Shown here: positions 12,301-27,472 of the stretch, piece after piece
Position numbering within the stretch: position 1 is the stretch's first letter
How the letters are laid out: each line of letters opens with the position of its first letter
Assembly: GCA_001896555.1 (NCBI GenBank)
Contig: MPOS01000002.1
Location: forward strand, 77,371 to 141,370
Direction: 5' to 3'
From: Candidatus Phosphitivorax anaerolimi
GTDB lineage: Bacteria > Desulfobacterota > Desulfomonilia > UBA1062
Length of the DNA: 64,000 nt
Made by a program: the position numbers and the translations under genes
Notes under the pieces: model-generated
The model's database searches: none
Seen by the model: only the letters and a program-made list of their open reading frames with translations
What the model was told of the DNA's origin: nothing

Positions 12301-13548
12301 TCACCGGAAAGACGGTATCACCGCGTATATGGTGTCTATGACCCGGCTCACAATTCCCTGTAGCCACCGGATGCCTGTTTGCCTGGTCTCTGCATCGAGC
12401 CCGCGCGCGGTCTCGATATAATCCCTGCCGGCCTCCCTGCCGGCCGCCAGCAGCGAGAGAAAGGCGTCGCGGTCTTGCTCGTCGCCGGTGCGGGATTTCA
12501 GGGAGCGGAGCATTTCGCACAGCCTGACCCATTTTTCGAAGAGGTCCCGCTTCTGAGCAATGAGGACGCGGCGCGCCGCCTTCCCCATGAGGGCCTGGTA
12601 CTCATGGATGGATTCGGGCATGTTCTCGGCCATCTCTCCCAGGTGTCTGATCCGCTCGTCGAGCGACATGTCGATTTTTTCCAGTGCGCCCCTGAGCAGT
12701 GCCTGCTCAATGGCCCCGGACCCGAAGAACTCCGAGCGCACAAAGACATACCAGGCGCGCAGTGCCACGAGATTTGCGATGAAAAGCAGATTGTTCCTGA
12801 CGCTGCGGGTGATCTCCCAGTAGATGCCTGGCCGGAAATCCCGCATGGCGGGCCGGGGGTGATCGTCGAACACCACCTTGCCGCCTTCGGTGATATCGCC
12901 GCGGATAATGGTCCCTGCCGAGATCACGGTGCCGTATTCAATGACAGCCGGCCCTACCAGTCCACCCTGTCCTCCGAGGAAGATTGGCCTCTCGCCCAGC
13001 ATAACACCCCGGGGGACATCCCCCAGCAGAGATGGTGCGGCCCTGTCACGGTTCGGGGTGAGATTAAAGTGCACAAAGGAGCTCCCCACCTCGCTGCAAT
13101 TCCTGCGGTCCGTGCCCCCTGCCATGAGACAATCGCAGAAATCGATGTGGCTCCCCAGGGTGACGAAAGGCATGAGGACCGTGTGCTCGAGCTTTATCGA
13201 GTGAGCCCCTGACACTTCTTCTTCCAGGATGCATGCGTCCCGGACATGGGCATCTCCGGCCACAGAGGACCGGTCCAGAAAAACGGACCGGCCGAAGAAC
13301 CCGCCTCCGAGCTCAACGTCCCTGCCTGTCTGGCAGTCGATGAGCGTGACCGGACCAGACGAGCCCAGGACGGTGCCCGCCTGGATGGAGGTGGTCTTGC
13401 CGGAGATCCTGCAGCCGGGATGGATGACGACTCCGGGCGCTATCATGCCTGGATCGACGTCTTCGCCGATCACAACGCCTGCAGGAAAGGGCATGATCAC
13501 GCCCTTATCCATGAGTGATCTCGTCTTGTGATCCAGACCGTTCTCCAT
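12301..13548 (-). CDS. left-handed beta-helix (hexapeptide-repeat) protein with C-terminal helical domain, function unknown
   Basis: Repeated [LIV]-G-x-x-x-x hexapeptide pattern across about 230 N-terminal residues. Co-directional with and 44 nt downstream of the large GH13 gene. Confidence 0.55.
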   Translation of the reverse strand: MENGLDHKTRSLMDKGVIMPFPAGVVIGEDVDPGMIAPGVVIHPGCRISGKTTSIQAGTVLGSSGPVTLIDCQTGRDVELGGGFFGRSVFLDRSSVAGDAHVRDACILEEEVSGAHSIKLEHTVLMPFVTLGSHIDFCDCLMAGGTDRRNCSEVGSSFVHFNLTPNRDRAAPSLLGDVPRGVMLGERPIFLGGQGGLVGPAVIEYGTVISAGTIIRGDITEGGKVVFDDHPRPAMRDFRPGIYWEITRSVRNNLLFIANLVALRAWYVFVRSEFFGSGAIEQALLRGALEKIDMSLDERIRHLGEMAENMPESIHEYQALMGKAARRVLIAQKRDLFEKWVRLCEMLRSLKSRTGDEQDRDAFLSLLAAGREAGRDYIETARGLDAETRQTGIRWLQGIVSRVIDTIYAVIPSFR

Positions 13549-13591
13549 GATACCGTCTCTCCTGACCCTATAAGGAGATTATGAACGGGTA

Positions 13592-16500
13592 TTACGGCTC
13601 GTCAAATTCCTTCAAAGACGACAGGAACTCCGCCACCGAGTACCCTGCCTTTCCGGCGGCCTCCGCCGCCTCGGTCACATATTGCCGGCTCGCTTTCAGC
13701 CTGTCTTCGTCAAGCTTCAGCTTTCCGGAAGACACCTCCATGGAGCGGATCGCCGAAGTCGTGAAGAGCCAATAGAGCATCTGCTCAAAGGACTCCTTGT
13801 TGAACCACAGCTTGCCGCCGAACTCGTTGACCCCCATGAAGGCCTGTGCATCCGCATCCGCGAACAGGTTCTCCATGACTGCACCCAATCCTTTCTCGAC
13901 CGAGAGCTCGTACCAGTCCTGATGGGAGATCAACGCCTGAACCAGGTGGAGTTCGAACCGTGCCGCGCCCTCATCAAGCCCCATAGAGACGAGGCTCTGC
14001 CTGAGGACCTTGCCCAGGAGAAGCTCGTCCATCAGGGCCCTGCTCTTGACAGGGACTGCCTCAGGCTCCACCAGGGTGCCGATACGACAGAGGATACCCC
14101 ACAGGAGAGGTATCCTCCACCAGGAGAGGTCTTGGGTCACGCCGGCCGGGACCCGGCTGAAGAGGTAGTCGAGCGGGGCCTTCAATCCCCTGCCCGCTCT
14201 CACGCGAAGCAGACGGATGTTGAGCAGGGACTTGAGCAGAGAGTGTATCGCTTCGACGATCTCCACGAGGTCCGACTCCTCGCGCCAGGCATAGAGGTAG
14301 ACCCGCACTTCCCTGAAGAACCCGGCCAGGACTTGCAGGAACGGGTCGGTCACATCGCCCAGATGCACGCCCTCCTGCACGCTCTGGAAGAGGAAGGACG
14401 GGTCCATAAGCGTCCGGAAAGGATCGAGGATGGGTTTCAAATAGAGCTCCTGGAGCTCTGAGGCGACATCCGGGACCCCCCGGCCGCCCAGGTAGTCGTG
14501 CAGCCGTTTCACCTGGCCGTCAAAGTCGCGCATCTCATGGAAGCCCATGAACACGTTCGACTTGAACGCACCCAGGTGCACAAAGAGGCCTTCAGTACAC
14601 AGGGACCGCCCTGACCGTAAGTATTGCAGCCCCTCGCGGAAATCCTCCAGCACATAGTAGACAGCCTCGTCACCGGAAAGCCTGAGCGCCTCTCCCAAGG
14701 TCTTGTGCACAAGCTGTCTCTTCCCGCCCCCCATGTCTACGCTCATGCCCACCGAACGCCTGACCCACCCCCGAGCCTCGGCGTAACGGTTGTTGTAGAC
14801 CACAAGGGTGCGCTCGTCACCTGCCATGTTGGAGTAGGCGAACACGTCCTCGTTCACATGCCCTTCTTCGGTAACCACGTCGAAGAGAGCGAAGTTGTCG
14901 ATCTCGCTGAAGAGATAGCGCTTGCGGAGCAAAGGAAAGATCTCGCGCTCGTGGCGTGCCACCAGGTGCTCGTCCACGCCTTCGTCCCAGTAGGAGCGGC
15001 GATATTCCATGCCGTACTTCTCGCCGAAGCCCTCGATCTGGCCGTGGCCGAACATGGGCAACCCGGGCAGGGTCACCATCATGGTGGCCACCCCGAAGTA
15101 CTTGTCGCCCTTGCCGAACTGCGCCACGGCAGGCTCCTCGTCAGGGTTGTTCATGAAGTTGACGAAGCGTTTGAGGATCTCGGGGTTGAAGCGGAGCACG
15201 TTTTTTATCACGTCGCGGTACTTGCTGTTTTCCTCTGTCTTGAGCATGTTCATGAATGCGCTGTTGTAGACGCGGTGCATGCCCAGGCTCCTGACAAAGT
15301 AGCCTTCCATGAGCCAGAACGCTTCGGCCAGCAGCAGGGTGTTGGGTGCCTCCACGGCCACCCGGTCGACCAGCTCCCGCCAGAACTCCTCGGGGAACAT
15401 CGCATCGAACTCCTCCTGCGACACGCTGTGGGCCGAGCGCGAGGGGATGTCTCCGCCGTATCCGGGCAGCGGATACCAGAGCCGCTGGAAGTGGCGCTTG
15501 GCGAGCGTCATGGCCGCGTCGAACCGGATGACCGGAAACTCTCTGGCTACCTCGATGGTCTTCTGTATCACCGCCTCCCTGACTTCAGCCTTGATGAAGT
15601 CGAGCTGGGCCGTGTCGTTCCAGGGCGTGCTCGTGCCGTCGTTTCCGTGATAGATGTAGCGGGTGTCGCCGGTATAGCGGTCGTATCGCTTGAATACCAC
15701 CGCAGCATCGGTGCGGGTCCAGTAGCCGTCCTCGATCTGGATCACCACGCGATCGTCCTCCGAGAGGTTTTCGCCGGTGAACCGGTAGGAGGGAAAGGGG
15801 CTGTGCCTGAGCTGGATGAACCAGTCGGGGTGCTCGATCACCCACTTGGAGTAGATGCCCATGTGGTTGGGGACCATGTCGGTCGCCATCCGGATGCCAT
15901 AGCGCATGGCGCGCTTCTTGAGGTTGTCGAACGCGGGCTTGCCCCCCAGCTCACCTGCGATGACGTAATCGTAGATGGAGTACGCCGAGGCGGCCGCTTC
16001 GGGGTTTCCCGTGATCTGTTTGATCTTGCGGGATGCGGGGCTCCGCTCCCAGATGCCGATGAGCCACAGCCCGGTGATTCCCCACCGGGCGAGCTGCTCA
16101 AGCTCTTCGTCTGGGATCTCGTCGAGCCGGGAGATGGTGCGGCCGTATTTGCGGGAGAGCTGGTAGAGCCATACATAGGTGCTCTTGGCGATGAGCACGA
16201 GGTGCGGCATCCAGTCGAGATCGGCGCTGAAGCGCTCGATCTCTTCGAGCTCGCGGGCTCCGAAGAGGGGAACCAGGGAAGGACCGGGGCCGAAGTAGCG
16301 CGCCCGGTGCTCCTCGCGGTAGAAGTCCATGCCCTTGAGGATGCGCAGCAGGAGGTCCTTGAGCAGGTACCCCCAGTGGGTCCGGATGTATTCGAGCTGC
16401 CCGTAGAGCGAATCGGGAGAGGCCTTGGCGGGCGCGCGCAGGAGCTCGAGCAGGGTCTGACCTTCAGGGCCGAACACCGGCTGGGAGGCGAAGAAATCCT

Positions 16501-17047
16501 CCAGCGATTTCAGGATATCCATATACCGGCTCTGATCTTCCAGCAGGGTGTCGTCGAAGAGCTCGAGGTAGCGGGAGAACGCCGGATTTTCGTTGGCAAG
16601 AAAGAGCAGGATCATCTCCTCCAGGGTGATGTGCGTATTCTCGACACCCGTGGTGCGATCCCTCAGGTAGGCCGTTTCCGGGATCTTGCCCTGATAGACC
16701 GCGACCGGGGGGAATTGCTCTACAAACTTCTGCAGGGTGGGGTCCACTTCGCCCACGTTCTCCTGCGCCCAGGCGTAGGCCTCGGCCATGATGGAGGGCT
16801 TGACGCTCCTGCGGTAGAGCTCAACCATGAAGTGGAGGATCTCGTCGATGAGACCCATGGCATAGATATCGCTTGCCGAGACCGAGCGTTCGGGATAGAT
16901 CGCGGCCTGGCGGACCTGGTTCATCTTGTCTGCAAACCTGCGCGCCATGAAGAAATCCGCCAGGATGACATTGCCGGTGATGGAGAAAAGGGCTTCCTCG
17001 AACTGGTACTTGTCTCTTACCTGCCTGGAAATGTGGAACTCAAACAT
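13592..17047 (-). CDS. large (1151 aa) GH13 alpha-amylase-family protein, maltooligosyltrehalose-synthase (TreY)-like core
   Basis: GH13 conserved regions DMVPNHMG, VIRFDAAMTL, LLLAEAFW and a C-terminal LPGLPMFGHGQ-E block reminiscent of TreY. The N- and C-terminal extensions have no recognisable motifs. Confidence 0.6.
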   Translation of the reverse strand: MFEFHISRQVRDKYQFEEALFSITGNVILADFFMARRFADKMNQVRQAAIYPERSVSASDIYAMGLIDEILHFMVELYRRSVKPSIMAEAYAWAQENVGEVDPTLQKFVEQFPPVAVYQGKIPETAYLRDRTTGVENTHITLEEMILLFLANENPAFSRYLELFDDTLLEDQSRYMDILKSLEDFFASQPVFGPEGQTLLELLRAPAKASPDSLYGQLEYIRTHWGYLLKDLLLRILKGMDFYREEHRARYFGPGPSLVPLFGARELEEIERFSADLDWMPHLVLIAKSTYVWLYQLSRKYGRTISRLDEIPDEELEQLARWGITGLWLIGIWERSPASRKIKQITGNPEAAASAYSIYDYVIAGELGGKPAFDNLKKRAMRYGIRMATDMVPNHMGIYSKWVIEHPDWFIQLRHSPFPSYRFTGENLSEDDRVVIQIEDGYWTRTDAAVVFKRYDRYTGDTRYIYHGNDGTSTPWNDTAQLDFIKAEVREAVIQKTIEVAREFPVIRFDAAMTLAKRHFQRLWYPLPGYGGDIPSRSAHSVSQEEFDAMFPEEFWRELVDRVAVEAPNTLLLAEAFWLMEGYFVRSLGMHRVYNSAFMNMLKTEENSKYRDVIKNVLRFNPEILKRFVNFMNNPDEEPAVAQFGKGDKYFGVATMMVTLPGLPMFGHGQIEGFGEKYGMEYRRSYWDEGVDEHLVARHEREIFPLLRKRYLFSEIDNFALFDVVTEEGHVNEDVFAYSNMAGDERTLVVYNNRYAEARGWVRRSVGMSVDMGGGKRQLVHKTLGEALRLSGDEAVYYVLEDFREGLQYLRSGRSLCTEGLFVHLGAFKSNVFMGFHEMRDFDGQVKRLHDYLGGRGVPDVASELQELYLKPILDPFRTLMDPSFLFQSVQEGVHLGDVTDPFLQVLAGFFREVRVYLYAWREESDLVEIVEAIHSLLKSLLNIRLLRVRAGRGLKAPLDYLFSRVPAGVTQDLSWWRIPLLWGILCRIGTLVEPEAVPVKSRALMDELLLGKVLRQSLVSMGLDEGAARFELHLVQALISHQDWYELSVEKGLGAVMENLFADADAQAFMGVNEFGGKLWFNKESFEQMLYWLFTTSAIRSMEVSSGKLKLDEDRLKASRQYVTEAAEAAGKAGYSVAEFLSSLKEFDEP

Positions 17048-17235
17048 GCATTCTTCTCTTTCAAAAGGAATTGGTGATCACCACGATACCATTGGTTGTT
17101 TTTCAAGCCCGCTGTCCTGCATCGCCGGTGCAGCCACAACCGCCTATGACAATAGAGTAGAATCTAGGAGAAAGAATCTCCACAGTCAAGGCATAATGAT
17201 CGGATAAAACAAAGGGTGTTGCCTTTCAGACAGCC

Positions 17236-18090
17236 TCAGCCCCGTTTCATGGCCATGAAGCTCCCCATGGGTACGTCCACCTCCTGTGAGACGACCGGGC
17301 ACTTGACCATGAAGAGGTGGAAAACCTCCCTGCCGGGTGCATCGAGGGTTTCGAAGTTGCCCTGCCCCTTGGATATGACCAGGTCCGCGGCCGCGAAGCA
17401 CTCCAGAAACTCCTCGCTGCACAAGGAAAGCGGTGTTCCCGGGGCCTCGGAGCCGCTCGGGATGACCCTGCATAGCCTGTCGAGCCCGGCCTGGGCCGCA
17501 TCGGTCAGGGTGGCGTCGTTGATGACGGGAGCCGACCTGACCGCGCAGGTGACCCTATCCGGCCCGATATGCTCGATGAATATCCGGTCGAGAACGATCT
17601 CGCCGGCGTTGTCGGCGACGTAGAGGACGCGCTCCGCCTTTCTAAGCCGCTCGATGAGCTCAGGGATGTCGTTGACGGCAAACGATGAGTCCAGGGCGTT
17701 CATGATCGTGTCTTCTACTGCGATTTCCTCGCAGCCGTGTGCGCCAAGCCCGAAATCGATGATGTTGCCGGCTACCGCCATGCGTAGAGCAGCCTCCAGC
17801 ATATCGGGCCTGGATGCAATGATCCGCCTCAGCCGCGGCGCCAGAGACAGGGCCTGCTCGTTGGAGTGCCTCTTCTTTTCTCCGTAGGGATCGCCCTTGC
17901 CGTCCATGTCTCTGTAGATCCGGTAGATCTCCCGGGTGAACAGGGGCGGCGGAGCGTCACAGTCGAAACGGGCTAGGCCTTCGAGGACCCGGCGCATGAA
18001 AGGCTCCCGCTTATGCGGGGCGAGATACTCCCGGGCCAGCCCGGCCGCCTGCTTTGTCAGGCAGGCTATGCATTCGACCTGGGTGCGCAT
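17236..18090 (-). CDS. DUF89 family protein (ARMT1-like damage-control phosphatase family)
   Basis: Length and N-terminal ECIACL-containing region are consistent with DUF89. Co-operonic with the upstream mrp (3-nt gap). Confidence 0.5.
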   Translation of the reverse strand: MRTQVECIACLTKQAAGLAREYLAPHKREPFMRRVLEGLARFDCDAPPPLFTREIYRIYRDMDGKGDPYGEKKRHSNEQALSLAPRLRRIIASRPDMLEAALRMAVAGNIIDFGLGAHGCEEIAVEDTIMNALDSSFAVNDIPELIERLRKAERVLYVADNAGEIVLDRIFIEHIGPDRVTCAVRSAPVINDATLTDAAQAGLDRLCRVIPSGSEAPGTPLSLCSEEFLECFAAADLVISKGQGNFETLDAPGREVFHLFMVKCPVVSQEVDVPMGSFMAMKRG

Positions 18091-18093
18091 CTT

Positions 18094-18957
18094 TCAACGT
18101 GAAACGATCTGCTCGAGTATTTTCGAGACGATCTTTGCAAACGCCTTGCCCGCTTCCGTATCACCCGATGACGCCACGAACGGCCTGCCCTCATCGGTGT
18201 CGCGAACGATACCCGGATCTATGGGGACCGCGCCCAGGAACGGCACGCCCAGGTCCTCGGACGCCTTCCTGCCGCCGCCCGTCTTGAAGAGGTCGATGCT
18301 CTTGCCGCAGTGCGGGCAGGCAAAGCCGCTCATGTTCTCGATGATGCCGAGAGGTTTGAGCTCGAGTGCCCTGGCGAACTCCACACTCTTGCGCGAGTCC
18401 AGAAGCGCCACGTCCTGCGGGGTGGTGACGATCACCGCATAGGGCGTCTCCACTCCCTCGACGCCCTTGGTGAGCTGCGCGATGGAAAGCGGCTCGTCGC
18501 CCGTGCCCGGAGGCAGATCAACCACGAGGAAATCGAGGTCGCCCCAGTTCACGTCCTTCAGAAACTGTCTCATGACCGTATGTTTCATGGGGCCGCGCCA
18601 GATCACCGGCGTGTCAGGGCTGTCCAGCAGGTACCCCACAGAGACCACCTTGATGCCGCCGATGGCCTCCACGGGCAGGATATTGCCTTTTTCGTCGCCC
18701 ATGAGTCTCATGTTTTCCACTCCCAGGACCTTGGGGATGTCGGGCCCGTGAATGTCGCCGTCGAGCACACCCACCCGGTAGCCCTCACGTGCCAGGCTGA
18801 GGGCCAGGTTTGCCGTCACCGTGGACTTGCCTACCCCGCCCTTGCCGCTCATGACCATGATGGTATGCCTGATCCGGGAAAGCTGCTTCTTCAGTTTTTT
18901 CTGCTGATTCTCCTGTATCTGTATTATCTTGCTGTTATCGATATCTGTCATCCTCAT
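18094..18957 (-). CDS. Mrp/NBP35/ApbC-family P-loop ATPase (Fe-S cluster carrier)
   Basis: Deviant Walker [11 protein letters not shown] and CPHCG cysteine motif. Confidence 0.85.
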
Positions 18958-19326: not shown

Positions 19327-19881
19327 ATGGCATCCATCGTTGATTACGACACTCTTCTGGACGAGTGCATCACGTTTCACGGGCATCTCTGCATGGGGCA
19401 GGTTCTGGGAGTGCGGGTAGCATCAAAAGGCCTGGAGCTTGTCTCGCCTGATTTACCGCGGGATCTGATCGTTGCTGTGGAGATAGACCGCTGCCTGGCG
19501 GACGCTGTGCTCACGGTCACGGGCACGAGGATAGGGCGGCGCAGCCTCAAGCTGTATAATTACGGCCGCATGGCGGCATCGTTTCTGAACTGCACAACCG
19601 GAAAGGCATACCGGGTAAGGGCTGCCTACCAGGGGCCCCAGCCTGGGGACGACGAGAAGGCCATGAGGTCGATCCTTGTGCTCCCGGATGAAGAGATCGT
19701 CGCCTGGGAAGAGATCGAGCTCGTATTCCCTGAAAGCGAAATGCCCGGGAGACCAAAGAGAACCGTCCTCTGCAGCATCTGCGGCGAGAAGATCTTCGAC
19801 GGCAAGGACAGGCCGGGGCCCGATGGCCCTGCTTGCGCCGCATGCCTCGACGGCAGGTACTATACGGTCAAGAAGAGCTGA
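19327..19881 (+). CDS. FmdE-family protein (formylmethanofuran dehydrogenase subunit E-like domain with C-terminal Cys4 zinc ribbon)
   Basis: FHGHLCMG motif typical of the FmdE domain; C-terminal CSICGEK...CAAC zinc-ribbon. Confidence 0.6.
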   Translation: MASIVDYDTLLDECITFHGHLCMGQVLGVRVASKGLELVSPDLPRDLIVAVEIDRCLADAVLTVTGTRIGRRSLKLYNYGRMAASFLNCTTGKAYRVRAAYQGPQPGDDEKAMRSILVLPDEEIVAWEEIELVFPESEMPGRPKRTVLCSICGEKIFDGKDRPGPDGPACAACLDGRYYTVKKS

Positions 19882-19910
19882 AAATCGTAAAATTAGGGAG
19901 AGAGGTATCA

Positions 19911-20705
19911 ATGGGGCTGCATTTTGCCAGAAGGAAAGGATCGCCGTGGAGCCTGTTCGATCGGCTCATCGAGGGAATCCCGCAGGAGATCGAGGTCGAA
20001 GATTGTCTTGTCGGGCTCCACTGGATCATGGTCCGGTCGAAGGGTGTGGGGATTGCCATGACGCCGCCCGAGGGCTCCAGGCATATCGAGGGCGCGGGAA
20101 CATTCAGGGGCAGGAAGGTCAGGGATCTGGCCGGGCTCATGAGGTCGTGGAGCATCATGGAGGCGGCAATCGGCGCAGCCGCTGCCAACTCGTATTACAA
20201 TGCGCCCGAGGTGCTGGCGGAAACCTGGGATATCGACATCCACAACCAGCCTGAGCTCAATGCGTTCGAGTATTATCAGAAACGCCTTGAGGGAAAGAAG
20301 GTTGCAGTGAAAGGCCATTTTCCGGGGCTCGAAGGCCTCGCAGAGGCATGCGAGCTCTCGATCCTGGAGAGAAGGCCTCAGAAAGGTGATTTCCCCGATC
20401 CTGCCTGCGAATATCTCCTCCCCCGTCAGGATGCGGTCTTCATGACCGGGACCGCCCTCATCAACAAAACCATGCCCCGCCTCCTCGAACTCGCTGCCGG
20501 AGGGATGAGCGTGGTCGTCGGCCCCACCACGCCGATCACGCCTCTGCTCTTCGCCTTTGGTGCGACAGCGCTTGCAGGCTCTGTGGTCATCGATGAGAAG
20601 AACGCATGGCGCCACGTTGCAGAGGGCGGGGACAGGTCGATCTTCTCCCACGGGACCCGGATGATAAAGGCTGAGCCTGCCATGGCAAGGAGGAGCGGGC
20701 GATGA
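19911..20705 (+). CDS. DUF4213/DUF364 'putative heavy-metal chelation' family protein (paralogue 1)
   Basis: About 265 aa. N-terminal small domain plus C-terminal Rossmann-like domain ending ...GGDRS. The architecture and the fmdE/ABC-transporter context match the DUF4213+DUF364 family. The call is by pattern, not by search. Start chosen at the ATG after SD AGGGAGAGAGG. Confidence 0.5.
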   Translation: MGLHFARRKGSPWSLFDRLIEGIPQEIEVEDCLVGLHWIMVRSKGVGIAMTPPEGSRHIEGAGTFRGRKVRDLAGLMRSWSIMEAAIGAAAANSYYNAPEVLAETWDIDIHNQPELNAFEYYQKRLEGKKVAVKGHFPGLEGLAEACELSILERRPQKGDFPDPACEYLLPRQDAVFMTGTALINKTMPRLLELAAGGMSVVVGPTTPITPLLFAFGATALAGSVVIDEKNAWRHVAEGGDRSIFSHGTRMIKAEPAMARRSGR

Positions 20706-21541
20706 CTGTCCCGGGGTATGACCGCATGATCGATGCAATCGCCTCTTCGGCAGACCCGAGGCCGCGCATCGAGGACATCCGCATCTACACCAACTGGGTC
20801 CTGGTCAAGACGGGCAAGTGGTCGCTGTCCACGGTCTTTCGGGGCATGCCGGGCTTCGACGAGCACCCGGGCATGGACACCTGGATGGGGGGCTGGCTGG
20901 GAAGGCCCGGTCTCGAATCCGCCATGGAGCTCCTTTCGAGCAGGGAAACGCTCAAGCGCGCCGTGGGAATGGCCTGCCTAAAATCCCTGCTCCCGGAGCC
21001 CGAGCACGTGCTCTTCGGGAATGCCATCGACATGTTCGAGGCCGCATCGCCGCATGTGCCCATATGCTTCATCGGGCATTTCAAGGATGGCGCGGACTGG
21101 CGCAGCAGAGGCCGCCCGGTCTCCATCGTGGAGCTCTTTCCAAGGCCGGGAGACATCCACTGGGATGAGGCGGATGAAGTCCTTGAAAAGGCGCGGATCG
21201 TGCTCATGACAGGGCTCACCGTGGTAAACGAGACCCTTTCGGCAGTGGTGGCCCGCACGCCCTCGGCCCTCATCCGCGTGATCATGGGCCCGACCGTGCC
21301 GCCGAGCCGGGCGCTCTTCGACTTCGGCATCGACATGCTCGGCGTGACCCTGGTCGACGATGTCGAGGCCATGGTGGGATATGCGCGGCTGGGAGGGGGC
21401 AGCATCGCCTATTCTCCTCCGGGCGCCCTCCGGAAGATCAATATGGTGAGAAGCGCCGACGATATACGCCGGAGGCTTGCCTCCCTGCTGACGGACCAGT
21501 GGGAGATCACAGGGGAAAAGGAAGAACTGGCATGTGGCTGA
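20702..21541 (+). CDS. DUF4213/DUF364 'putative heavy-metal chelation' family protein (paralogue 2)
   Basis: Same architecture as the preceding gene (C-terminal ...LGGGSIAY). ATGA start/stop overlap with paralogue 1 suggests translational coupling. Confidence 0.5.
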   Translation: MTVPGYDRMIDAIASSADPRPRIEDIRIYTNWVLVKTGKWSLSTVFRGMPGFDEHPGMDTWMGGWLGRPGLESAMELLSSRETLKRAVGMACLKSLLPEPEHVLFGNAIDMFEAASPHVPICFIGHFKDGADWRSRGRPVSIVELFPRPGDIHWDEADEVLEKARIVLMTGLTVVNETLSAVVARTPSALIRVIMGPTVPPSRALFDFGIDMLGVTLVDDVEAMVGYARLGGGSIAYSPPGALRKINMVRSADDIRRRLASLLTDQWEITGEKEELACG

Positions 21542-22356
21542 ACGCAGTCGCCCAATGGCGCTCGAAACGGGTTGCCTGCGCCCTGGTGACGATCATCGAA
21601 TCGGCCGGGTCAACTCCCCGCAAGGCCGGATCGAAAATGGCGGTGAGCGCGTGCGGGAAAACCGCAGGCTCTGTTGGCGGAGGCGCAGTCGAGCTGAAAT
21701 GCATAGAGCTTGCGAAAGAAGCGATTGCCCGGGGGGCCTGCATCACCGGGCGCTTCGTTTCAAACGACCAGGGCAACGACTGGACGCTTGCGGAGCAGGA
21801 TAGGTTGCTTGGCCTGTGCGGCGGGACGCTCACGGTGTTCGTCGAGCCTCTGACGCCCGAGCCTGAGCTGGTGATCTTCGGCGGAGGCCACATAGGCATG
21901 CACCTGGGAAGGCTGTGCGAGGTCCTGGAAATGCCGTACCGCGTGTACGACGAGCGGAAAGACTTCGTTGACGAAAAGCGCTTCTCCGGTGCCAAGGCCC
22001 TCGTCTGCGCCCCGTTCGCCGAGATTTCAGCGCATGTCGAGCTGTCGGACAGGAGCTACTGCGTGGTCATGACCTACGGCCACGAGCACGACGAAGAGGT
22101 CCTGGAACAGCTCCTGAAAAACAGCGCGATCCCCTACATCGGCATGATCGGCAGCCCGAACAAGGCGGGCGTCCTGGTCCGGAACATCAGGCAGCGAGGC
22201 GGCGTCATCGACGATAGGCTCTACTGCCCCATCGGGCTTTGCATCGGCCGGAACCTCCCGCAGGAGATCGCCCTGTCGGTCATGGCCGAGGTCGTGCTGC
22301 TCGCAAGGGGAGGACGGTACGACCATATGCGGATCGACTGGACCGGGAAAACTTAA
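21532..22356 (+). CDS. XdhC/CoxI-family protein (molybdenum-cofactor insertion chaperone-like)
   Basis: XdhC_CoxI N-domain (TIIESAGSTPRKAGSKMAV...GSVGGGAVE) plus XdhC Rossmann domain (VIFGGGHIG). SD AAAAGGAAGAA upstream; 10-nt overlap with the preceding gene. Confidence 0.7.
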   Translation: MWLNAVAQWRSKRVACALVTIIESAGSTPRKAGSKMAVSACGKTAGSVGGGAVELKCIELAKEAIARGACITGRFVSNDQGNDWTLAEQDRLLGLCGGTLTVFVEPLTPEPELVIFGGGHIGMHLGRLCEVLEMPYRVYDERKDFVDEKRFSGAKALVCAPFAEISAHVELSDRSYCVVMTYGHEHDEEVLEQLLKNSAIPYIGMIGSPNKAGVLVRNIRQRGGVIDDRLYCPIGLCIGRNLPQEIALSVMAEVVLLARGGRYDHMRIDWTGKT

Positions 22357-22454
22357 AATCAGCGGCATGAACCCCGGGGCAAGCCGTTGACTTTGTTTTA
22401 TTACAAGCGGCGGGGGATAAGCCCAGGAGACATTCAAATCATGCGAGAGGAAAT

Positions 22455-24485
22455 GTGAATATGAAGAGGGGATTGGGCATCAGGTGCATTTGCGGACTGG
22501 TTGTGCTTTTCCTGGCCTTCTCCGGTGCGGCGGCTGCCCGGGAGGCGGGCGGAGAAGCGAAAAAAGGCGATGCGAACGTCTTTAAGCTCGGAGAGGTGGA
22601 AGTCAGCGGAAAAAAAGAAGCGGTAAAGAACGTGACCGTGGACAAGGTCTCGTCGGAAGAGATGAGGCTCTTCAATGCAGACAACGTTGCCGAGGCCGCG
22701 GGCAGGCTCCCCGGGGTGAACATGTCCGCTTTCGGTGTAAGGAACGAGCGGATGGTATACGTGAGGGGCTTCGATCTCAAGCACGCGCCGATCTTCCTGG
22801 ACGGCATCCCCATCTATGTCCCCTATGACGGATACCCGGACCTCGGCAGGTTCACCACCTCCGATTTGTCGGAGATCGTGGTTTCCAAGGGGTTCACGTC
22901 CGTACTCTACGGGCCGAACACCATGGGAGGCGCGATCAACATGGTGTCGCGGAGACCGGAAAAGACCTTTGAAGGCGATGCGGGCGCCGGCTACGGCACC
23001 GGGGGGACCTACAGGGCACACCTCAATCTCGGGACGAATCAGGGAAGGTGGTATGTCCAGGCAGGCGGGTCATACATCGACAGCGATTATTTCCCGCTTT
23101 CCGACAGCTTCGACCCCACGCCTGCGGAAGACGGTAAGCGCAGAGAAAACTCCTATTATAAGGACGAGAGCGCAAACATAAAAATCGGCTTCACTCCCAA
23201 TGCCGAAGACGAGTATGCCTTGAGCTACATTCGCCAGCACGGCGTGAAGGGCTCGCCGCCGTATGCCGGGACAGACACTTCCCAGACTGCCCGTTACTGG
23301 CAGTGGCCCTACTGGAACAAGGAGAGCGTGTACTTCACCTCCAGGACGGAATTTCAAGCCCCCTTCTACCTGAAAACAGGCGCTTTCTATGACAGGTTCT
23401 GGAATTCCCTCCTGAGCTTCGACGATGCTACATACTCCACCATTACCCGGAAATACGCATTCAGGAGCGACTACAACGACCATACCTTCGGCGGTTCCGT
23501 CGAGGTCGGGACGGAAGCGGTCCGGTCCAACCTGATCAAGCTCTCTCTCAGGTACAAGAACGACATCCACAAGGAGTGGAACGAGGGAAAACCCATCCAG
23601 ACCTTCCAGGACTGCACCCTTTCCGCCGGTCTGGAAGATACGGTCACTATTTCCGAAGAGCTGTATGTCATTGCCGGAGCGAGCTATGACATGGCGGATA
23701 CCGTGGAGGCGGAAGACCTGGACGGCTCGAATCAGAGGGTCGATTTCGAGATGGAAAGAACAGCTGCGTTCAACCCCCAGCTCGGCATATTCTATACCCT
23801 CCCCGGCAAGGGAGTGATCCATGCCGCGATATCGAGAAAGACCCGCATACCTTCCATCAAGGACAAGTTCTCCTACAGGCTGGGCACCGCGATCCCCAAC
23901 CCCGGTCTCGATCCGGAGAAGTCGATCAACTATGAGATCGGATATCAGAACACCTTCTTCGGCAGGTTCTTCTTCAAGACCACGGTCTTCCACAACAACA
24001 TCACCGACTACATTCTCCAGGCAACGGTGCCCGATCCCTCGAACCCCGGGAGCACGACCCTGCAGAACCAGAACATCGGGAAGGTATCCCAGTACGGGGC
24101 CGAGGTGGAAGTATCGGGGGCACTGCTCGATGTCCTCGAAGGAGGCCTCACCTACGCCTATATCCACCAGAACAACAGAACGAATTCCAACAAGCTGACA
24201 AACGTCCCCGCGGCCAAGGCGGGAGGCTACCTCAAGTGCTCTCCCGCACACTTTGTGAGCGGGCTCGTGGACGTGCAGTACGTTTCAAAGATGTACAGCT
24301 CGTCGAACGGCGTGCGGGAGGCCGGGGACTTCACTGTCGTGAATGCGAAGCTCATGTGCGAGCCGGTGAAAGGAATCACGGCTGAAGCAGGGCTCGACAA
24401 TGTGTTCGACAGGAACTACGCTCTGGATGAGGGATTTCCCGAGCCGGGCAGGACCATGTTCGCAAATATCGGCTACAGGTTCTAG
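22455..24485 (+). CDS. TonB-dependent outer-membrane receptor
   Basis: Signal peptide, plug-domain motifs and a C-terminal beta-barrel ending in the terminal aromatic ...IGYRF. Confidence 0.85.
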   Translation: MNMKRGLGIRCICGLVVLFLAFSGAAAAREAGGEAKKGDANVFKLGEVEVSGKKEAVKNVTVDKVSSEEMRLFNADNVAEAAGRLPGVNMSAFGVRNERMVYVRGFDLKHAPIFLDGIPIYVPYDGYPDLGRFTTSDLSEIVVSKGFTSVLYGPNTMGGAINMVSRRPEKTFEGDAGAGYGTGGTYRAHLNLGTNQGRWYVQAGGSYIDSDYFPLSDSFDPTPAEDGKRRENSYYKDESANIKIGFTPNAEDEYALSYIRQHGVKGSPPYAGTDTSQTARYWQWPYWNKESVYFTSRTEFQAPFYLKTGAFYDRFWNSLLSFDDATYSTITRKYAFRSDYNDHTFGGSVEVGTEAVRSNLIKLSLRYKNDIHKEWNEGKPIQTFQDCTLSAGLEDTVTISEELYVIAGASYDMADTVEAEDLDGSNQRVDFEMERTAAFNPQLGIFYTLPGKGVIHAAISRKTRIPSIKDKFSYRLGTAIPNPGLDPEKSINYEIGYQNTFFGRFFFKTTVFHNNITDYILQATVPDPSNPGSTTLQNQNIGKVSQYGAEVEVSGALLDVLEGGLTYAYIHQNNRTNSNKLTNVPAAKAGGYLKCSPAHFVSGLVDVQYVSKMYSSSNGVREAGDFTVVNAKLMCEPVKGITAEAGLDNVFDRNYALDEGFPEPGRTMFANIGYRF

Positions 24486-24494
24486 GGGCTTGGA

Positions 24495-25565
24495 ATGCGG
24501 CGGAGCTCCCGGTATCGCGTCGCGGCATATACGCTGCCCATCCTGGTCATGACCTTCCTCTTTCCGGTCCTGGCAGGCATGTCGCCTGCCTCGGCCGGGG
24601 AGATCACTGACATGACCGGCAGGAAAGTCGTCGTGCCTGACACAATCAACCGGGTGTTCGCCGTATCCCCACCGGGCACCTATCTGCTCTATGCCCTCGA
24701 CCCATCCGTCATCATCGGCCTGAACTTCCCTCTGTGGGAGAGCGAGAAGCGGTATACGGCGAAAAGCTACCAGACCCTGCCGGTCATCGGCGGCATGGTG
24801 GGCCAGGGAAGGAACATCAATCAGGAGGTGCTCCTGGCGGCAAAGCCCGATGTAATCGTCATCTGGGCAGGCAGAGTCTCCGCTGTGACGAGAAACTACG
24901 AAGAGATGTTTGCGAGGATGAAGATCCCCTGGTTCAACGTTTGCCTCGATACCATAGATGATTACCCTGAAGCGATCCTGTTTGTGGGCAGGCTCCTGGG
25001 CAGGAAAGAGCGGGCCGCAGAGCTCCATGGCTATGCCGTGTGTTCGCTGAACCAGGTGAAAACTTCTGTTGCCGGGATACCCGAGGCTTCACGGCCAAAA
25101 GTGTATTATGCACAGGGCATGGACGGCCTCTGCACCGATCCTGCCGGCTCCATGCATACCGAGCTGATCGAGTTCTGCGGCGGCGTCAACGTCCACAGGA
25201 AGCAGTCGCGCGACAATTACGGCTACGGCATGGACAAGGTGACTTTGGAACAGGTCATGCTCTATGACCCGGACGCCATTCTCATCAAGGAAAAGGCCTT
25301 TTACGCCGAGGTGTTCTCAGACCCGCGGTGGAGAAGGATCAAAGCCGTGCGGGAGAAAAGATGCTTCCTGATCCCGCATGGCCCGTTCAACTGGTTCGAC
25401 CGGCCGCCCTCGTTCATGCGGCTCCTGGGCGCCAAGTGGCTCATGTCGATCCTCCATCCCGAACGCTTCCCCATCGACATGATGGGCGAGACGAAGCTCT
25501 TCTACCGGCTCTTCCTGGGAGTCGACCTGAGCGACAAAGAGGCAAAGGAGCTTCTCGGAGAGTGA
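24495..25565 (+). CDS. periplasmic substrate-binding protein, class III (FecB/BtuF/FhuD-like) of an ABC importer
   Basis: Signal peptide, about 350 aa. The two-lobe helical-backbone family pattern is typical of siderophore, heme or cobalamin binders. Confidence 0.75.
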   Translation: MRRSSRYRVAAYTLPILVMTFLFPVLAGMSPASAGEITDMTGRKVVVPDTINRVFAVSPPGTYLLYALDPSVIIGLNFPLWESEKRYTAKSYQTLPVIGGMVGQGRNINQEVLLAAKPDVIVIWAGRVSAVTRNYEEMFARMKIPWFNVCLDTIDDYPEAILFVGRLLGRKERAAELHGYAVCSLNQVKTSVAGIPEASRPKVYYAQGMDGLCTDPAGSMHTELIEFCGGVNVHRKQSRDNYGYGMDKVTLEQVMLYDPDAILIKEKAFYAEVFSDPRWRRIKAVREKRCFLIPHGPFNWFDRPPSFMRLLGAKWLMSILHPERFPIDMMGETKLFYRLFLGVDLSDKEAKELLGE

Positions 25566-26572
25566 AGCCTTCGATCCTCATAATCCTTTGCGCCGTGCTT
25601 GGTCTTATGTGCTGCCTCTCGCTCACCCTCGGCAAATATCCGGTCGGTATAGGCGACATGGCTGCATTCTTCCTGTACAAAACAGCCGGCGCGGGGCCGA
25701 TGGGGGTGGCGGATGCCGAGCTCATGGAGAACCTGCTCTTCGACATCAGGCTTCCCCGCATCCTCGCCGCCATGCTGATCGGAGCCGCTCTTTCCACATC
25801 GGGGGCGTCGTTCCAGGCGCTGTTCACCAACCCGCTCGTGTCTCCGAAGATGCTGGGCGTGCTTTCCGGCGCGTCCTTCGGCGCGGTATCGGCAATGCTC
25901 TTTACCAGGAGCTGGTTCGTGGTGCAGGCCTCTGCAGCGGCCTTCGGCTTCATCGCGGTAGGCGCTGCGATCGGGATAGCCCGGCTGTACCGGACGGATT
26001 CGATCATCATGCTGGTCCTGGGAGGCATCATCAGCGAGGCCCTGTTTACCTCCCTGATCTCCATCGTCAAATACGTTGCCGACCCCTACGACGATCTGCC
26101 CGCCATCACCTACTGGCTCATGGGAAACCTCTCGTTCGTGAATTTAAGGACTGTCACCATCGCCGGTGTCCCGATCCTTGCGGGCGTCTTCGCGCTCATG
26201 CTGTACGGAAAGCATTTGAATGTTCTTTCCCTGGGCGATGAAGAGGCGCACAGCCTGGGCGTCAACATACGGGTCATCCGCTATGGCATCATCTTTTTTG
26301 CCACGCTCGCAAGCACCCTGACCGTGGTCATCGGCGGCATGGTGGGCTGGGTGGGCCTCATCATACCTCACGTGGCCAGGATGCTCGTAGGCCCCAACAA
26401 TATCATCCTCCTTCCCGCCTCGGCGCTCCTGGGGGCAATCTATCTGCTGCTCGCCGACGGTCTTTCCCGGCTGCTGTTCAGCTTCGAGATACCAATCGGC
26501 ATCGTGACCTCGCTCTTCGGCATCCCCTTTTTCCTGTACATCCTGAGGAATGCGAAGAAGGGGTGGAGCTGA
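25562..26572 (+). CDS. FecCD-family ABC permease
   Basis: Polytopic membrane protein with FecCD/BtuC-type conserved glycine-rich segments. GTG start overlaps the stop of the binding-protein gene. Confidence 0.8.
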   Translation: MKPSILIILCAVLGLMCCLSLTLGKYPVGIGDMAAFFLYKTAGAGPMGVADAELMENLLFDIRLPRILAAMLIGAALSTSGASFQALFTNPLVSPKMLGVLSGASFGAVSAMLFTRSWFVVQASAAAFGFIAVGAAIGIARLYRTDSIIMLVLGGIISEALFTSLISIVKYVADPYDDLPAITYWLMGNLSFVNLRTVTIAGVPILAGVFALMLYGKHLNVLSLGDEEAHSLGVNIRVIRYGIIFFATLASTLTVVIGGMVGWVGLIIPHVARMLVGPNNIILLPASALLGAIYLLLADGLSRLLFSFEIPIGIVTSLFGIPFFLYILRNAKKGWS

Positions 26573-26575
26573 ATC

Positions 26576-27472
26576 ATGTTCATCCGAGTCGAGAACATCA
26601 GTTTTTCATACGGGAAAAAGGAAGTGCTCGACGATGTCTCCCTCTCTTTTCGCCGAGGCGAGGTGGTATCCCTGCTCGGACCGAACGGAAGCGGCAAGAC
26701 GACCCTCCTGAAGGTTCTCCTGGGAATCCTCAAGCCTTCAAGGGGCAGGGTCCTGTTCGAAGGTGCTCCGATCGTTGCGATCGGCGCGAAACGGTTCGCC
26801 CGGAGGGTAGCCTATGTGCCGCAGCTGCATCACGGCGCGTTTTCCTACTCTGTCCTGGACGTCGTGCTCATGGGGCGCATGCCGTACAAGAATTTTTTTT
26901 CGCGGTTCACCCGCCGCGACAACGAGATAGCCGAATCCATGCTCGAAAAGCTGGGGATCGTCCACCTCAAGCACAAGCCGTATACGGAGATCAGCGGCGG
27001 CGAGCGCCAGCTCACCCTCATCGCGCGCGCACTGGCACAGGGGGCCGACACCTTCATCATGGACGAGCCCATAACCGGCCTGGACTACGGGAATCAGATC
27101 AGGCTCCTGGAGCAGATCATGGTTCTTTCGGCAGAGGGGCATACCGTCATCAAGTCGACGCACTTTCCCGACCATGCCCTGTGGGTGTCCGACCGCGCGG
27201 TGCTTATGAAGGACGGGACCGTGGCGGCGGACGGCACTGCATCCGGGGAGATCACGGCGGGCAACCTGGGCAAACTCTACAACATCCCGGTGCGGGTCAT
27301 GGACGCCGGCAACGGATTCAGCGTCTGCATCCCCTCTTCGAAGAAATGGGAGTGCACATGCCGGGACAGGAAGAACGGGCCTGCACATCACAAACACGAC
27401 TGCTTCCGCAAAGAAGGGGGAGAGACGAGAGCAGGCAAGACCGCCTGCAGCGGTGAGGGAAAGAAGGAGTAA
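26576..27472 (+). CDS. ABC transporter ATP-binding protein (FepC/BtuD-type) with Cys/His-rich C-terminal extension
   Basis: Walker [10 protein letters not shown], signature SGGERQ, Walker B FIMDEP. It has an extra tail of about 45 aa containing 5 Cys and 3 His ([26 protein letters not shown]...C). Confidence 0.85.

What the first reader, a model, noticed from the sequence alone, without database searches (positions are those of the whole stretch)
12301..17047. Giant TreY-like GH13 protein with unexplained 300+ aa extensions, followed by a hexapeptide-repeat protein
The 1151-aa ORF contains the GH13 catalytic signatures (DMVPNHMG, RFDAAMTL, LLLAEAFW) and a C-terminal block resembling maltooligosyltrehalose synthase (TreY). 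It is 250-400 aa longer than characterised TreY/amylase enzymes, with N-terminal (~330 aa) and C-terminal (~350 aa) regions lacking recognisable motifs. It is followed 44 nt downstream by a 415-aa protein whose N-terminal half is a left-handed beta-helix. That fold is typical of acyl/nucleotidyl transferases, and this partner pairing is not part of known trehalose (TreYZ) or glycogen operons. Together with the upstream mrp-DUF89 pair, all four genes are co-directional and could form one unit. This could be an unusual alpha-glucan/compatible-solute pathway.
Basis: partly seen in the sequence, partly recalled or inferred. Interest (0 to 1): 0.55.

Follow-up and report, generated by a model that had tools for sequence, protein, structure and literature searches.

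The report
Widespread uncharacterised giant glycogen-linked amylase-family enzyme
The 1151-residue protein is not a trehalose synthase but an ordinary-length member of a very large, untested branch of the alpha-amylase family that sits beside or fused to glycogen genes in many phyla, and the neighbouring beta-helix gene belongs to a separate amino-sugar gene set.

Summary
Both ORFs are real: 13592-17047(-), 1151 aa, and 12301-13548(-), 415 aa, 43 nt apart.

**The large protein**
- It is a GH13 enzyme with invariant DMVPNH, RFDAAMT (D510), LLLAEAFW (E575) and FMNNPDE (D636).
- It is not TreY: TIGR02401 scores 20.7 bits against a cut-off of 498.65, over a 38-residue match.
- Its length is routine. 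More than 8000 homologues and at least 1237 50%-identity clusters, from over 10 phyla, are nearly all 1100-1250 aa.
- The N-terminal (about 270 aa) and C-terminal (about 305 aa) helical extensions match nothing in Pfam or the PDB. A confident N-domain model has no Foldseek PDB hit.
- I found no characterised member.
- 25 of 80 loci from other species carry GH57, MalQ, GlgC, GlgA or a small GH13 nearby. Fusions to MalQ, GlgA and GlgC exist.
- I read it as a cytoplasmic glycogen or maltodextrin enzyme of unknown exact reaction.

**The 415-aa protein**
- It resembles the GlmU acetyltransferase domain.
- Its family normally sits next to glmM, glmS-like and nagB-like genes.
- Close relatives have GH13-glmM-LbH, so the window has lost glmM from between the two genes.

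**The upstream pair.** mrp-DUF89 is separated from GH13 by other genes, or is incomplete, in relatives. A four-gene unit is not supported.

The parts
13592..17047 (-). Whole ORF of the 1151-aa GH13-family protein (the stop codon is 13592-13594).
   Evidence: ORF list and translation. The N-terminus MFEFHISR is shared by homologues, so the start codon is right. The identical protein is called on 21 or more public contigs.
16232..17047 (-). N-terminal all-helical domain, residues 1-272, of unknown function.
   Evidence: AF2 model of residues 1-305 has pLDDT 81.8 and pTM 0.75. There is no Pfam hit, no PDB profile hit, and the best Foldseek PDB hit has E 1.6 with TM 0.2 or less. 33 of 247 columns are invariant. 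The domain is absent from the 496-aa relatives.
14903..16231 (-). GH13 catalytic module (barrel plus long domain B), residues 273-715. It carries CSR-I DMVPNH (390-395), CSR-II VIRFDAAMT (506-514), CSR-III LLLAEAFW (571-578), CSR-IV FMNNPD (631-636) and CSR-VII GLPMFGHGQ (662-670).
   Evidence: PF00128. The best PDB sequence hit is 4gkl and NF041321 MalA covers residues 551-759. 182 of 415 columns are invariant and all CSRs are invariant. Foldseek gives only GH13 structures. The module aligns with the 496-aa GH13 proteins over residues 275-833.
15518..15520 (-). Codon of D510, the predicted catalytic nucleophile (CSR-II).
   Evidence: Invariant. Its position in RFD corresponds to the GH13 GxRxD motif.
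15323..15325 (-). Codon of E575, the predicted general acid/base (CSR-III).
   Evidence: Invariant. It aligns with the Glu of FLAEAF in GlgE.
15140..15142 (-). Codon of D636, the predicted transition-state stabiliser (CSR-IV). It is preceded by Pro635 where most GH13 enzymes have His.
   Evidence: Invariant NNPD. It aligns with ENHD of 4gkl, with ENHD of the short relatives and with NTPD of GlgE.
14522..14902 (-). Beta-sandwich domain C, residues 716-842.
   Evidence: The model shows strands 720-840 at pLDDT 83-91. The region aligns with the C-terminal part of the short GH13 proteins and of GlgE.
13595..14521 (-). C-terminal helical extension, residues 843-1151, of unknown function. It is the least conserved part of the protein.
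   Evidence: Helical at pLDDT 80-95. There is no Pfam hit and no natural PDB hit. Mean identity to the window is 31%. The region is absent from the short relatives.
17048..17235 (-). 188-nt gap between DUF89 and GH13, with a promoter-like site TTGACT-17-TAGATT at 17189-17161.
   Evidence: This is a consensus match only. In relatives this position holds unrelated genes.
12301..13548 (-). 415-aa protein made of a GlmU-acetyltransferase-like left-handed beta-helix (residues about 1-240, 12829-13548) and a helical C-terminal half (12304-12828). It is probably co-transcribed with GH13 but belongs to a hexosamine gene set.
   Evidence: Translation. GlmU models match weakly. The family profile hits the GlmU acetyltransferase domain in PDB entry 5vmk at E 5.7e-5. 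The gap is 43 nt with an AGGAGA ribosome-binding site and no terminator. Its neighbours elsewhere are glmM, glmS-like and nagB-like genes.

Best explanation
[quoted passage not shown] It belongs to a very large family that is conserved across phyla and has no characterised member. Every member has the same four-part build:
- a helical N-terminal domain with no known relative;
- a divergent GH13 barrel with a long domain B;
- a beta-sandwich domain C;
- a helical C-terminal domain.

The catalytic Asp-Glu-Asp triad is intact, so the protein should cleave or transfer alpha-glucosidic bonds by the usual retaining double-displacement mechanism (inferred, not shown). Its substrate is most likely intracellular glycogen or maltodextrin, because relatives sit in, or are fused to, glycogen genes. 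The exact reaction is not determined; it could be hydrolysis, chain transfer or branching.

The 415-aa neighbour is a GlmU-acetyltransferase-like beta-helix protein that belongs to a hexosamine gene set (glmS-like, glmM, nagB-like). It abuts the GH13 gene here only because this genome lacks the glmM gene that separates the two in close relatives.

The mrp-DUF89 pair is regional synteny, not part of a unit.
For: **GH13 identity and active site**
- PF00128 passes its cut-off.
- D390/H395, R508/D510, E575 and D636 are invariant in 36 sequences.

**Family size and uniform length**
- 8000 of 8000 scored candidates hit, and the best 120 are nearly all about 1140-1180 aa.
- 1237 50%-identity clusters reach E below 1e-30, and the top 150 are mostly 1100-1250 aa.
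- The 80 species loci span Chloroflexota, Desulfobacterota, KSB1, Calditrichota, Spirochaetota, Acidobacteriota, Verrucomicrobiota, Chlorobi, Chlamydiota and others.

**Glycogen link**
- 25 of 80 loci carry GH57+DUF3536 (12), MalQ (9), GlgC (6), GlgA (5) or a GH13_48-like amylase (5) within 8 kb.
- L014 has GH13 | GH57 | GlgA | GlgC | MalQ.
- L054 has GH13-GlgC-GlgA on one strand.
- Fusions exist: MalQ-GH13 (P0256), GH13-GlgA (P0301) and GlgC-GH13 (P0084).

**Location.** The N-terminus has no signal-peptide-like hydrophobic stretch (direct reading).

**LbH protein**
- The family profile aligns with GlmU residues 245-454.
- glmM is adjacent in L084-L087 and L090-L092, and in 44 of 80 metagenome loci.
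- That glmM passes TIGR01455 (599 bits against 447.55).
- The 74%-identical relative L091 has GH13-glmM-LbH.
Against: - No member of the family has been tested, and I found no paper on it.
- The window itself contains no glycogen gene.
- Two of the three canonical GH13 histidines are replaced (T514, P635), so substrate or reaction may be unusual.
- The catalytic barrel was poorly modelled (pLDDT below 50 over much of residues 500-690), so the fold evidence for the core is weak.
- 55 of 80 loci show no glycogen neighbour.
- A short GH13 related to this core also sits beside the LbH gene in a second lineage. That argues the GH13-LbH neighbourhood may not be accidental.
Confidence: 0.6

Rival explanations
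1. The enzyme is a non-hydrolytic glucan transferase. It could be a GlgE-like maltosyltransferase using a sugar phosphate donor, or the branching or chain-transfer enzyme missing from GlgA-GlgC-MalQ-GH57 clusters.
For: - CSR-III LAEAF and CSR-IV N-x-P-D (His replaced by Pro) are shared with GlgE, which has FLAEAFT and NTPD.
- hhalign aligns residues 552-752 with GlgE 390-592 at 28% identity over 174 columns, E 3.8e-5.
- The gene is co-oriented with the biosynthetic genes glgC-glgA in L054, and fusions to GlgC and GlgA exist.
- Chloroflexi clusters show no recognisable branching enzyme within the 8-kb flanks.
Against: - No GlgE model hits the protein.
- CSR-II is RFDAAMT, not GlgE's RVDNPH (the GlgE motif is from memory, not checked here).
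- No treS, maltokinase or glgM-type gene was seen in the neighbourhoods.
- The closest full-length relatives of the core carry the GVRCD and ENHD signatures of the hydrolytic GH13_48/49 clade (PMC11239784).
Confidence: 0.2
2. GH13 and the LbH protein work together with hexosamine genes. They would make or recycle an amino-sugar-containing alpha-glycan, or couple glucan breakdown to UDP-GlcNAc synthesis.
For: - GH13-(glmS-like)-glmM-LbH lie on one strand in L002, L087, L090, L091 and L092.
- The gap in the window is 43 nt with no terminator.
- Separately, a 496-aa GH13 homologous to this core lies directly upstream of the LbH gene in 7 low-GC loci. In some of them an archaeal-type GlmU lies in between.
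Against: - None of 80 GH13 loci from other species has the LbH gene within 8 kb.
- None of 80 LbH loci has the giant GH13 within 5 kb.
- L001, L088 and L089, all close relatives, lack LbH next to GH13.
- Each adjacency may be a single inherited event in a housekeeping region (rpsB-tsf-pyrH-frr ... guaA-dapF).
Confidence: 0.15
3. One reading: a TreY-type maltooligosyltrehalose synthase in a compatible-solute pathway.
For: - Weak TreY matches around CSR-I: TIGR02401 at E 1e-4 over residues 362-399, and PDB entries 5zcr and 3hje at E 0.01-0.03.
- hhalign to a TreY covers residues 342-417.
Against: - Scores lie far below the TreY cut-offs: 20.7 against 498.65, 15.4 against 1021 and 16.2 against 2148.
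- The match covers only the beta2-beta3 region common to many GH13 enzymes.
- No treZ is in the window.
- No treZ or treY cluster appears among the recurrent neighbours.
- The C-terminal region has no TreY similarity.
Confidence: 0.03

Closest known systems
GH13_48 / GH13_49 / GH13_38 clade, represented by Thermotoga neapolitana maltogenic amylase AmyB (PDB 4gkl) and Haloarcula japonica alpha-amylase MalA (PMC11239784)
   Same: - Best PDB sequence hit is 4gkl, E 6.5e-6 over residues 313-413.
- Best NCBIfam hit is MalA, residues 551-759.
- CSR-VII ends in GQ and CSR-V ends in L-[DN].
- The HP[DE]WF motif follows CSR-I.
- The 496-aa proteins that align with the whole core carry this clade's GVRCD and ENHD signatures.
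   Different: - No Cys before the nucleophile; the giant family has Phe.
- CSR-IV is NNPD, not ENHD.
- CSR-II ends M-T, not [WY]-[GA].
- There is no Asp before the acid/base residue.
- Domain B is much longer, and there is an insertion of about 40 residues after CSR-II.
- There are about 270-aa N-terminal and about 305-aa C-terminal helical domains.
- The protein is 1151 aa against 420-670 aa.
GlgE, alpha-1,4-glucan:maltose-1-phosphate maltosyltransferase (GH13_3; PDB 3zss, 4cn1)
   Same: - LAEAF around the acid/base residue and N-x-P-D in CSR-IV.
- An EKY motif after beta8.
- Alignment of 174 columns at 28% identity over the second half of the barrel and the start of domain C.
- Foldseek lists GlgE structures among the top hits.
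   Different: - No GlgE family model matches.
- The first half of the barrel aligns better with GH13_48 and TreY.
- No treS or maltokinase genes are nearby.
- The N-terminal domains differ, and there is an extra C-terminal domain.
TreY, maltooligosyltrehalose synthase (GH13_26)
   Same: A GH13 fold and similarity around CSR-I.
   Different: It fails every TreY model by more than 20-fold in score. There is no treZ partner. The architecture and length differ. The C-terminal region has no similarity.
GlmU (bifunctional GlcN-1-P acetyltransferase / GlcNAc-1-P uridylyltransferase), compared with the 415-aa neighbour
   Same: - The left-handed beta-helix aligns with GlmU residues 245-454.
- Asn162 aligns with the Asn of GlmU's NYDG motif.
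- Its genes sit next to glmM, glmS-like and nagB-like genes.
   Different: - There is no nucleotidyltransferase domain.
- TIGR01173 scores 31.6 against 366.85.
- The aligned position of the GlmU catalytic His is Phe137 (the residue's role is from memory).
- There is an extra helical C-terminal half of about 175 aa.
- It co-occurs with a complete archaeal-type GlmU in some loci, so it is not simply a split GlmU.

Membership tests
GH13 (alpha-amylase family) | Match to the family's catalytic-domain profile above the curated cut-off. | tested here: met
   PF00128 scores 31.8 bits against 22, but only over residues 315-406. Homologues match across model positions 23-369.
GH13 (alpha-amylase family) | Catalytic triad of Asp (CSR-II), Glu (CSR-III) and Asp (CSR-IV). 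| tested here: met
   D510, E575 and D636 are invariant in 36 sequences. They align with the catalytic residues of 4gkl, GlgE and the short GH13 proteins.
GH13 (alpha-amylase family) | Conserved histidines of CSR-I, CSR-II and CSR-IV. | tested here: not met
   H395 is present. The CSR-II terminal position is T514 and the CSR-IV position is P635, both invariant. These histidines are typical rather than obligatory; GlgE also has Pro in CSR-IV.
GH13 (alpha-amylase family) | (beta/alpha)8 barrel with domain B and a beta-sandwich domain C. | tested here: inconclusive
   All top Foldseek hits are GH13 structures (probability 1.0), but TM is 0.35 or less and rmsd 12-18 A. The barrel region has pLDDT below 50. 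Domain C is well modelled.
TreY (GH13_26, TIGR02401) | Score above the equivalog cut-off over the full length. | tested here: not met
   20.7 against 498.65 bits over a 38-residue match. PRK14511 scores 15.4 against 1021 and PRK14507 scores 16.2 against 2148.
TreY (GH13_26, TIGR02401) | A treZ partner in the neighbourhood. | tested here: not met
   No GH13 or treZ-like gene lies elsewhere in the 64-kb window. None is among the recurrent neighbours in 80 loci.
GH13_48 | Cys before the nucleophile, L-[DN] at the end of CSR-V, GQ at the end of CSR-VII and NHD in CSR-IV (PMC11239784). | tested here: not met
   L-[DN] and GQ are present. Phe replaces the Cys and NPD replaces NHD.
GH13_49 | [WY]-[GA] at the end of CSR-II, Asp before the acid/base residue, and Glu in CSR-IV. 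| tested here: not met
   The protein has M-T, Ala and Asn at these positions. NF041321 scores 36.3 against 875.
GlgE (GH13_3) | Family model match and a maltose-1-phosphate supply (treS-pep2 or glgM) nearby. | tested here: not met
   No GlgE model is among the NCBIfam hits. No such neighbours were seen. Only the CSR-III and CSR-IV motifs and a partial alignment are shared.
GlgE (GH13_3) | Maltosyl transfer from maltose-1-phosphate. | not testable with these tools
   This needs an enzyme assay.
GlmU (for the 415-aa protein) | N-terminal nucleotidyltransferase domain together with a C-terminal LbH acetyltransferase domain, scoring above the equivalog cut-off. | tested here: not met
   The protein starts with the LbH domain and has no NTP_transferase hit. 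TIGR01173 scores 31.6 against 366.85.
Left-handed beta-helix acyltransferases (for the 415-aa protein) | A hexapeptide-repeat beta-helix homologous to known acyltransferase domains. | tested here: met
   The family profile hits the GlmU acetyltransferase domain at E 5.7e-5, residues 5-239 against 245-454. There are faint PF24894 and PF25087 hits in homologues.

The most novel reading that the evidence does not exclude
The giant family is a previously unrecognised core enzyme of glycogen metabolism in many mostly anaerobic phyla. It would be a transferase (branching, chain-elongating or GlgE-like) rather than an amylase. Its two unknown helical domains, the N-terminal one being a new fold, would bind the polymer or regulate activity. 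The recurrent neighbourhood with the hexosamine/LbH cassette would reflect a real metabolic coupling.
Probability: 0.2. Interest if true: 0.7.

Novelty: new variant of a known kind. Interest (0 to 1): 0.42.

Why it matters
If the context inference is right, a protein found in thousands of genomes across more than ten phyla is a standard but unstudied part of bacterial glycogen metabolism. Its catalytic core is 71-79% identical between phyla. About 575 of its residues, in two domains, have no known relative. Characterising one member would annotate a very large family and could fill a missing step (branching, debranching or chain transfer) in organisms whose glycogen clusters lack the classical enzymes. 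For this window specifically, the result is deflationary: there is no trehalose pathway and no special operon.

Tried and rejected
- **Full-length AF2 model** (36-sequence alignment). The catalytic barrel came out at low confidence, probably because the core is too conserved to carry covariation. The Foldseek PDB hits are therefore generic GH13 only.
- **Profiles of the N- and C-terminal regions** against the PDB and Pfam gave nothing except designed helical bundles.
- **A 186-residue core segment** against the PDB gave only rBAT and a fucanase at E about 0.5.
- **Local HMM and hhalign comparisons** with GlgE, TreY, TreS and GH13_48-like sequences gave only fragmentary alignments. They cannot assign a subfamily.
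- **Literature searches** found no study of this family. A 2024 review of prokaryotic alpha-glucan enzymes (PMC11046441) has no mention of Chloroflexi, Deltaproteobacteria or Spirochaetes carriers in the text held.
- **Rejected: a split GlmU.** Some loci also encode a complete archaeal-type GlmU next to the LbH gene.
- **Rejected: mrp-DUF89 as part of the unit**.
Full report
**1. Observation**

The two ORFs exist as described. One lies at 13592-17047(-) and encodes 1151 aa. The other lies at 12301-13548(-) and encodes 415 aa. They are separated by 43 nt that carry an AGGAGA ribosome-binding site and no terminator-like hairpin. Upstream on the same strand are a DUF89/ARMT1 damage-control phosphatase (17236-18090) and an Mrp/ApbC Fe-S carrier (18094-18957).

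In an alignment of 36 homologues they are invariant: DMVPNH, (V/I)IRFDAAMT, LLLAEAFW, FMNNPDE and GLPMFGHGQ. The identical protein is called on at least 21 public contigs, including the MAG GCA_050949605.1, with the same gene order.

**2. It is GH13 but not TreY**

Pfam finds only PF00128, over residues 315-406 (31.8 bits, cut-off 22). NCBIfam gives nothing near a cut-off:
- MalA of Haloarcula: 36.3 against 875.
- TreY TIGR02401: 20.7 against 498.65, over 38 residues.

The best solved relative by sequence is Thermotoga neapolitana AmyB (4gkl, E 6.5e-6, residues 313-413). TreY structures reach only E 0.01-0.03. A profile of the last 307 residues finds no TreY or any natural protein in the PDB. 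The 'TreY-like C-terminal block' is therefore not there.

The 64-kb window contains no treZ, glgE, glgB or other alpha-glucan gene.

**3. The length is normal for its family**

- The word-indexed search saturated at 8000 hits. The best 120 (52-100% identity) are almost all 1126-1228 aa.
- The exhaustive search of 50%-identity representatives found 1237 clusters at E 1e-30 or better. The top 150 are mostly 1100-1250 aa and match from residue about 2 to beyond 880.
- Species-representative genomes carrying it include Chloroflexota, Desulfobacterota, KSB1, Calditrichota, Spirochaetota (Treponema, Breznakiella), Acidobacteriota, Verrucomicrobiota, Chlorobiaceae, Chlamydiota, Hydrogenedentota, Nitrospirota and Bacteroidota.

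Conservation by region:

| Region | Residues | Mean identity to the window | Invariant columns |
|---|---|---|---|
| N-domain | 1-247 | 55% | 33 of 247 |
| Catalytic core | 301-715 | 79% | 182 of 415 |
| Domain C | 716-842 | 56% | 13 of 127 |
| C-terminal region | 843-1151 | 31% | 11 of 309 |

**4. Anatomy**

The full-length AF2 model has mean pLDDT 71.4. It gives:
- a confident helical N-domain;
- a poorly resolved barrel;
- a confident beta-sandwich at 720-840;
- a confident helical C-terminal domain.

The boundaries of the catalytic module come from 496-aa homologues that consist of that module alone. They align with residues about 275-843. The extensions are therefore about 270 aa (N) and about 305 aa (C).

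Neither extension matches Pfam or the PDB by profile. An N-domain-only model (pLDDT 81.8, pTM 0.75) has no Foldseek PDB match (best E 1.6). More sensitive libraries were unavailable. The extensions remain unexplained, but they are a constant feature of the family and not a peculiarity of this gene.

**5. Where the core sits within GH13**

Against the signatures published for GH13_48 and GH13_49 (PMC11239784), the family:
- shares GQ at the end of CSR-VII and L-[DN] at the end of CSR-V;
- has Phe instead of Cys before the nucleophile;
- has NNPD instead of (E)NHD;
- lacks the features specific to GH13_49.

The 496-aa relatives do carry GVRCD and ENHD. The giant family therefore looks like a derived sister of that clade. 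It has a much longer domain B, an insertion after CSR-II, and loss of two of the three canonical histidines (T514, P635).

Its LAEAF and N-x-P-D motifs recur in GlgE (FLAEAFT, NTPD). hhalign aligns residues 552-752 with GlgE 390-592 at 28% identity. This is a lead toward transferase chemistry, not a membership.

**6. Function from context**

In 80 loci from other species, 25 carry alpha-glucan genes within 8 kb:
- GH57+DUF3536 in 12;
- MalQ in 9;
- GlgC in 6;
- GlgA in 5;
- a GH13_48-like amylase in 5.

Examples are L014 (GH13 | GH57 | GlgA | GlgC | MalQ) and L054 (GH13-GlgC-GlgA on one strand). Fusion proteins join the family to MalQ (P0256), GlgA (P0301) and GlgC (P0084). One joins it to glycerate-2-kinase (P0080).

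The N-terminus has no signal peptide. I infer a cytoplasmic enzyme acting on glycogen or maltodextrin. The reaction type is open. I found no experimental paper on the family.

**7. The 415-aa neighbour**

Its N-terminal half aligns with the acetyltransferase beta-helix of GlmU. It has no nucleotidyltransferase domain, and the C-terminal 175 residues are helical and unannotated.

The family has 4734 hits. Its neighbours elsewhere:
- It is adjacent to glmM in L084-L087 and L090-L092.
- In 80 metagenome loci, 44 have glmM beside it, 25 a glmS-like gene and 17 a long nagB-like gene. The glmS-like gene is often a 1215-1238-aa form.
- The glmM passes TIGR01455.

Relatives 57-74% identical to the window GH13 show GH13-(glmS-like)-glmM-LbH (L002, L087, L090, L091, L092). 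Others have GH13 without LbH (L001, L088, L089). None of the 80 species loci has LbH within 8 kb. The direct GH13-LbH contact in the window is thus a derived state after loss of glmM from the locus.

**8. The mrp-DUF89 pair**

In relatives, the space between this pair and GH13 holds fur-feoA-feoA-feoB (L087, L090) or an opposite-strand ABC substrate-binding gene (L091). Elsewhere DUF89 is missing (L089, L092, L001). The window has a 188-nt gap with a promoter-like site. A four-gene unit is not supported.

**9. A loose end**

In seven low-GC metagenome loci, a 496-aa GH13 lies directly upstream of the LbH gene. This GH13 is the closest full-length relative of the giant's core that I found. In some loci an archaeal-type bifunctional GlmU lies in between, and glmS and nagB-like genes lie alongside. 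Two separate lineages therefore place a GH13 of this lineage beside the LbH/hexosamine cassette. This may be chance in carbohydrate-rich housekeeping regions, or a real link. I give it 0.15.

**10. Verdict**

The interpretation (TreY-like, unusual length, dedicated partner, four-gene unit) is mostly not supported. What is there is a typical member of a very large, highly conserved, uncharacterised GH13 family tied to glycogen genes, with two unexplained helical domains. It sits next to an unrelated hexosamine-cassette gene. Interest is moderate. It rests on the family as a whole, not on this locus.

Noticed in passing
L090:9553-13269; L086:2874-6521; L002:4411-8160: A giant GlmS-like protein (1215-1238 aa; weak GATase_6 plus SIS). 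It is about twice the size of canonical GlmS and matches TIGR01135 only over residues about 369-908, below the cut-off. It recurs next to glmM and the LbH gene. The extra 600 or so residues are unexplained.
   Followed up: partly
L122, L125, L131, L140, L143, L163, L166 (for example L140:1824-6212): In a low-GC (32-35%) lineage, a 496-aa GH13 homologous to the giant's core lies directly upstream of the LbH-family gene. In four loci an archaeal-type bifunctional GlmU (TIGR03992 above its cut-off) lies in between. Canonical glmS and a long nagB-like gene lie alongside. This is a second GH13-LbH neighbourhood.
   Followed up: partly
window 14903-16141 (residues about 301-715): The catalytic core is unusually conserved for a GH13 enzyme. 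182 of 415 columns are invariant and identity is 71% or more between Desulfobacterota, Chloroflexota, Planctomycetota and others. This probably explains why AlphaFold modelled this part poorly from the alignment.
   Followed up: partly
P0080 (1620 aa, JGI contig of 7497 bp): A fusion of glycerate-2-kinase (DUF4147 plus MOFRL) to the giant GH13. It is a single cluster and could be a gene-calling artefact or a hint of a link to glycerate-derived solutes.
   Followed up: no
window 19327-27472 (+): Divergent from mrp lies a cluster of FmdE, two DUF364/DUF4213 'heavy-metal chelation' proteins, XdhC, a TonB-dependent receptor, FecCD permease and an ABC ATPase. It looks like a metal or cofactor uptake and insertion cluster. 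In one other contig carrying the identical GH13 (L081) it is replaced by different genes.
   Followed up: no
window 12301-12828 (residues 241-415 of the LbH protein): The helical C-terminal half of the LbH protein has its own invariant residues (N259, W266, Y267, R271, F274, E298, R299, W395). It has no Pfam or PDB match.
   Followed up: no
L014:11583-13007 and 11 other loci: The GH57 protein that most often neighbours the giant GH13 carries DUF3536, not the DUF1957 of known GH57 branching enzymes (the DUF1957 assignment is from memory). It is itself an uncharacterised type.
   Followed up: no
L094:424-3744: Azospirillum ramasamyi encodes a 1106-aa 'maltotransferase domain-containing protein' (GlgE-like). 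BLAST suggests the GH13 N-terminal region is duplicated in it.
   Followed up: no
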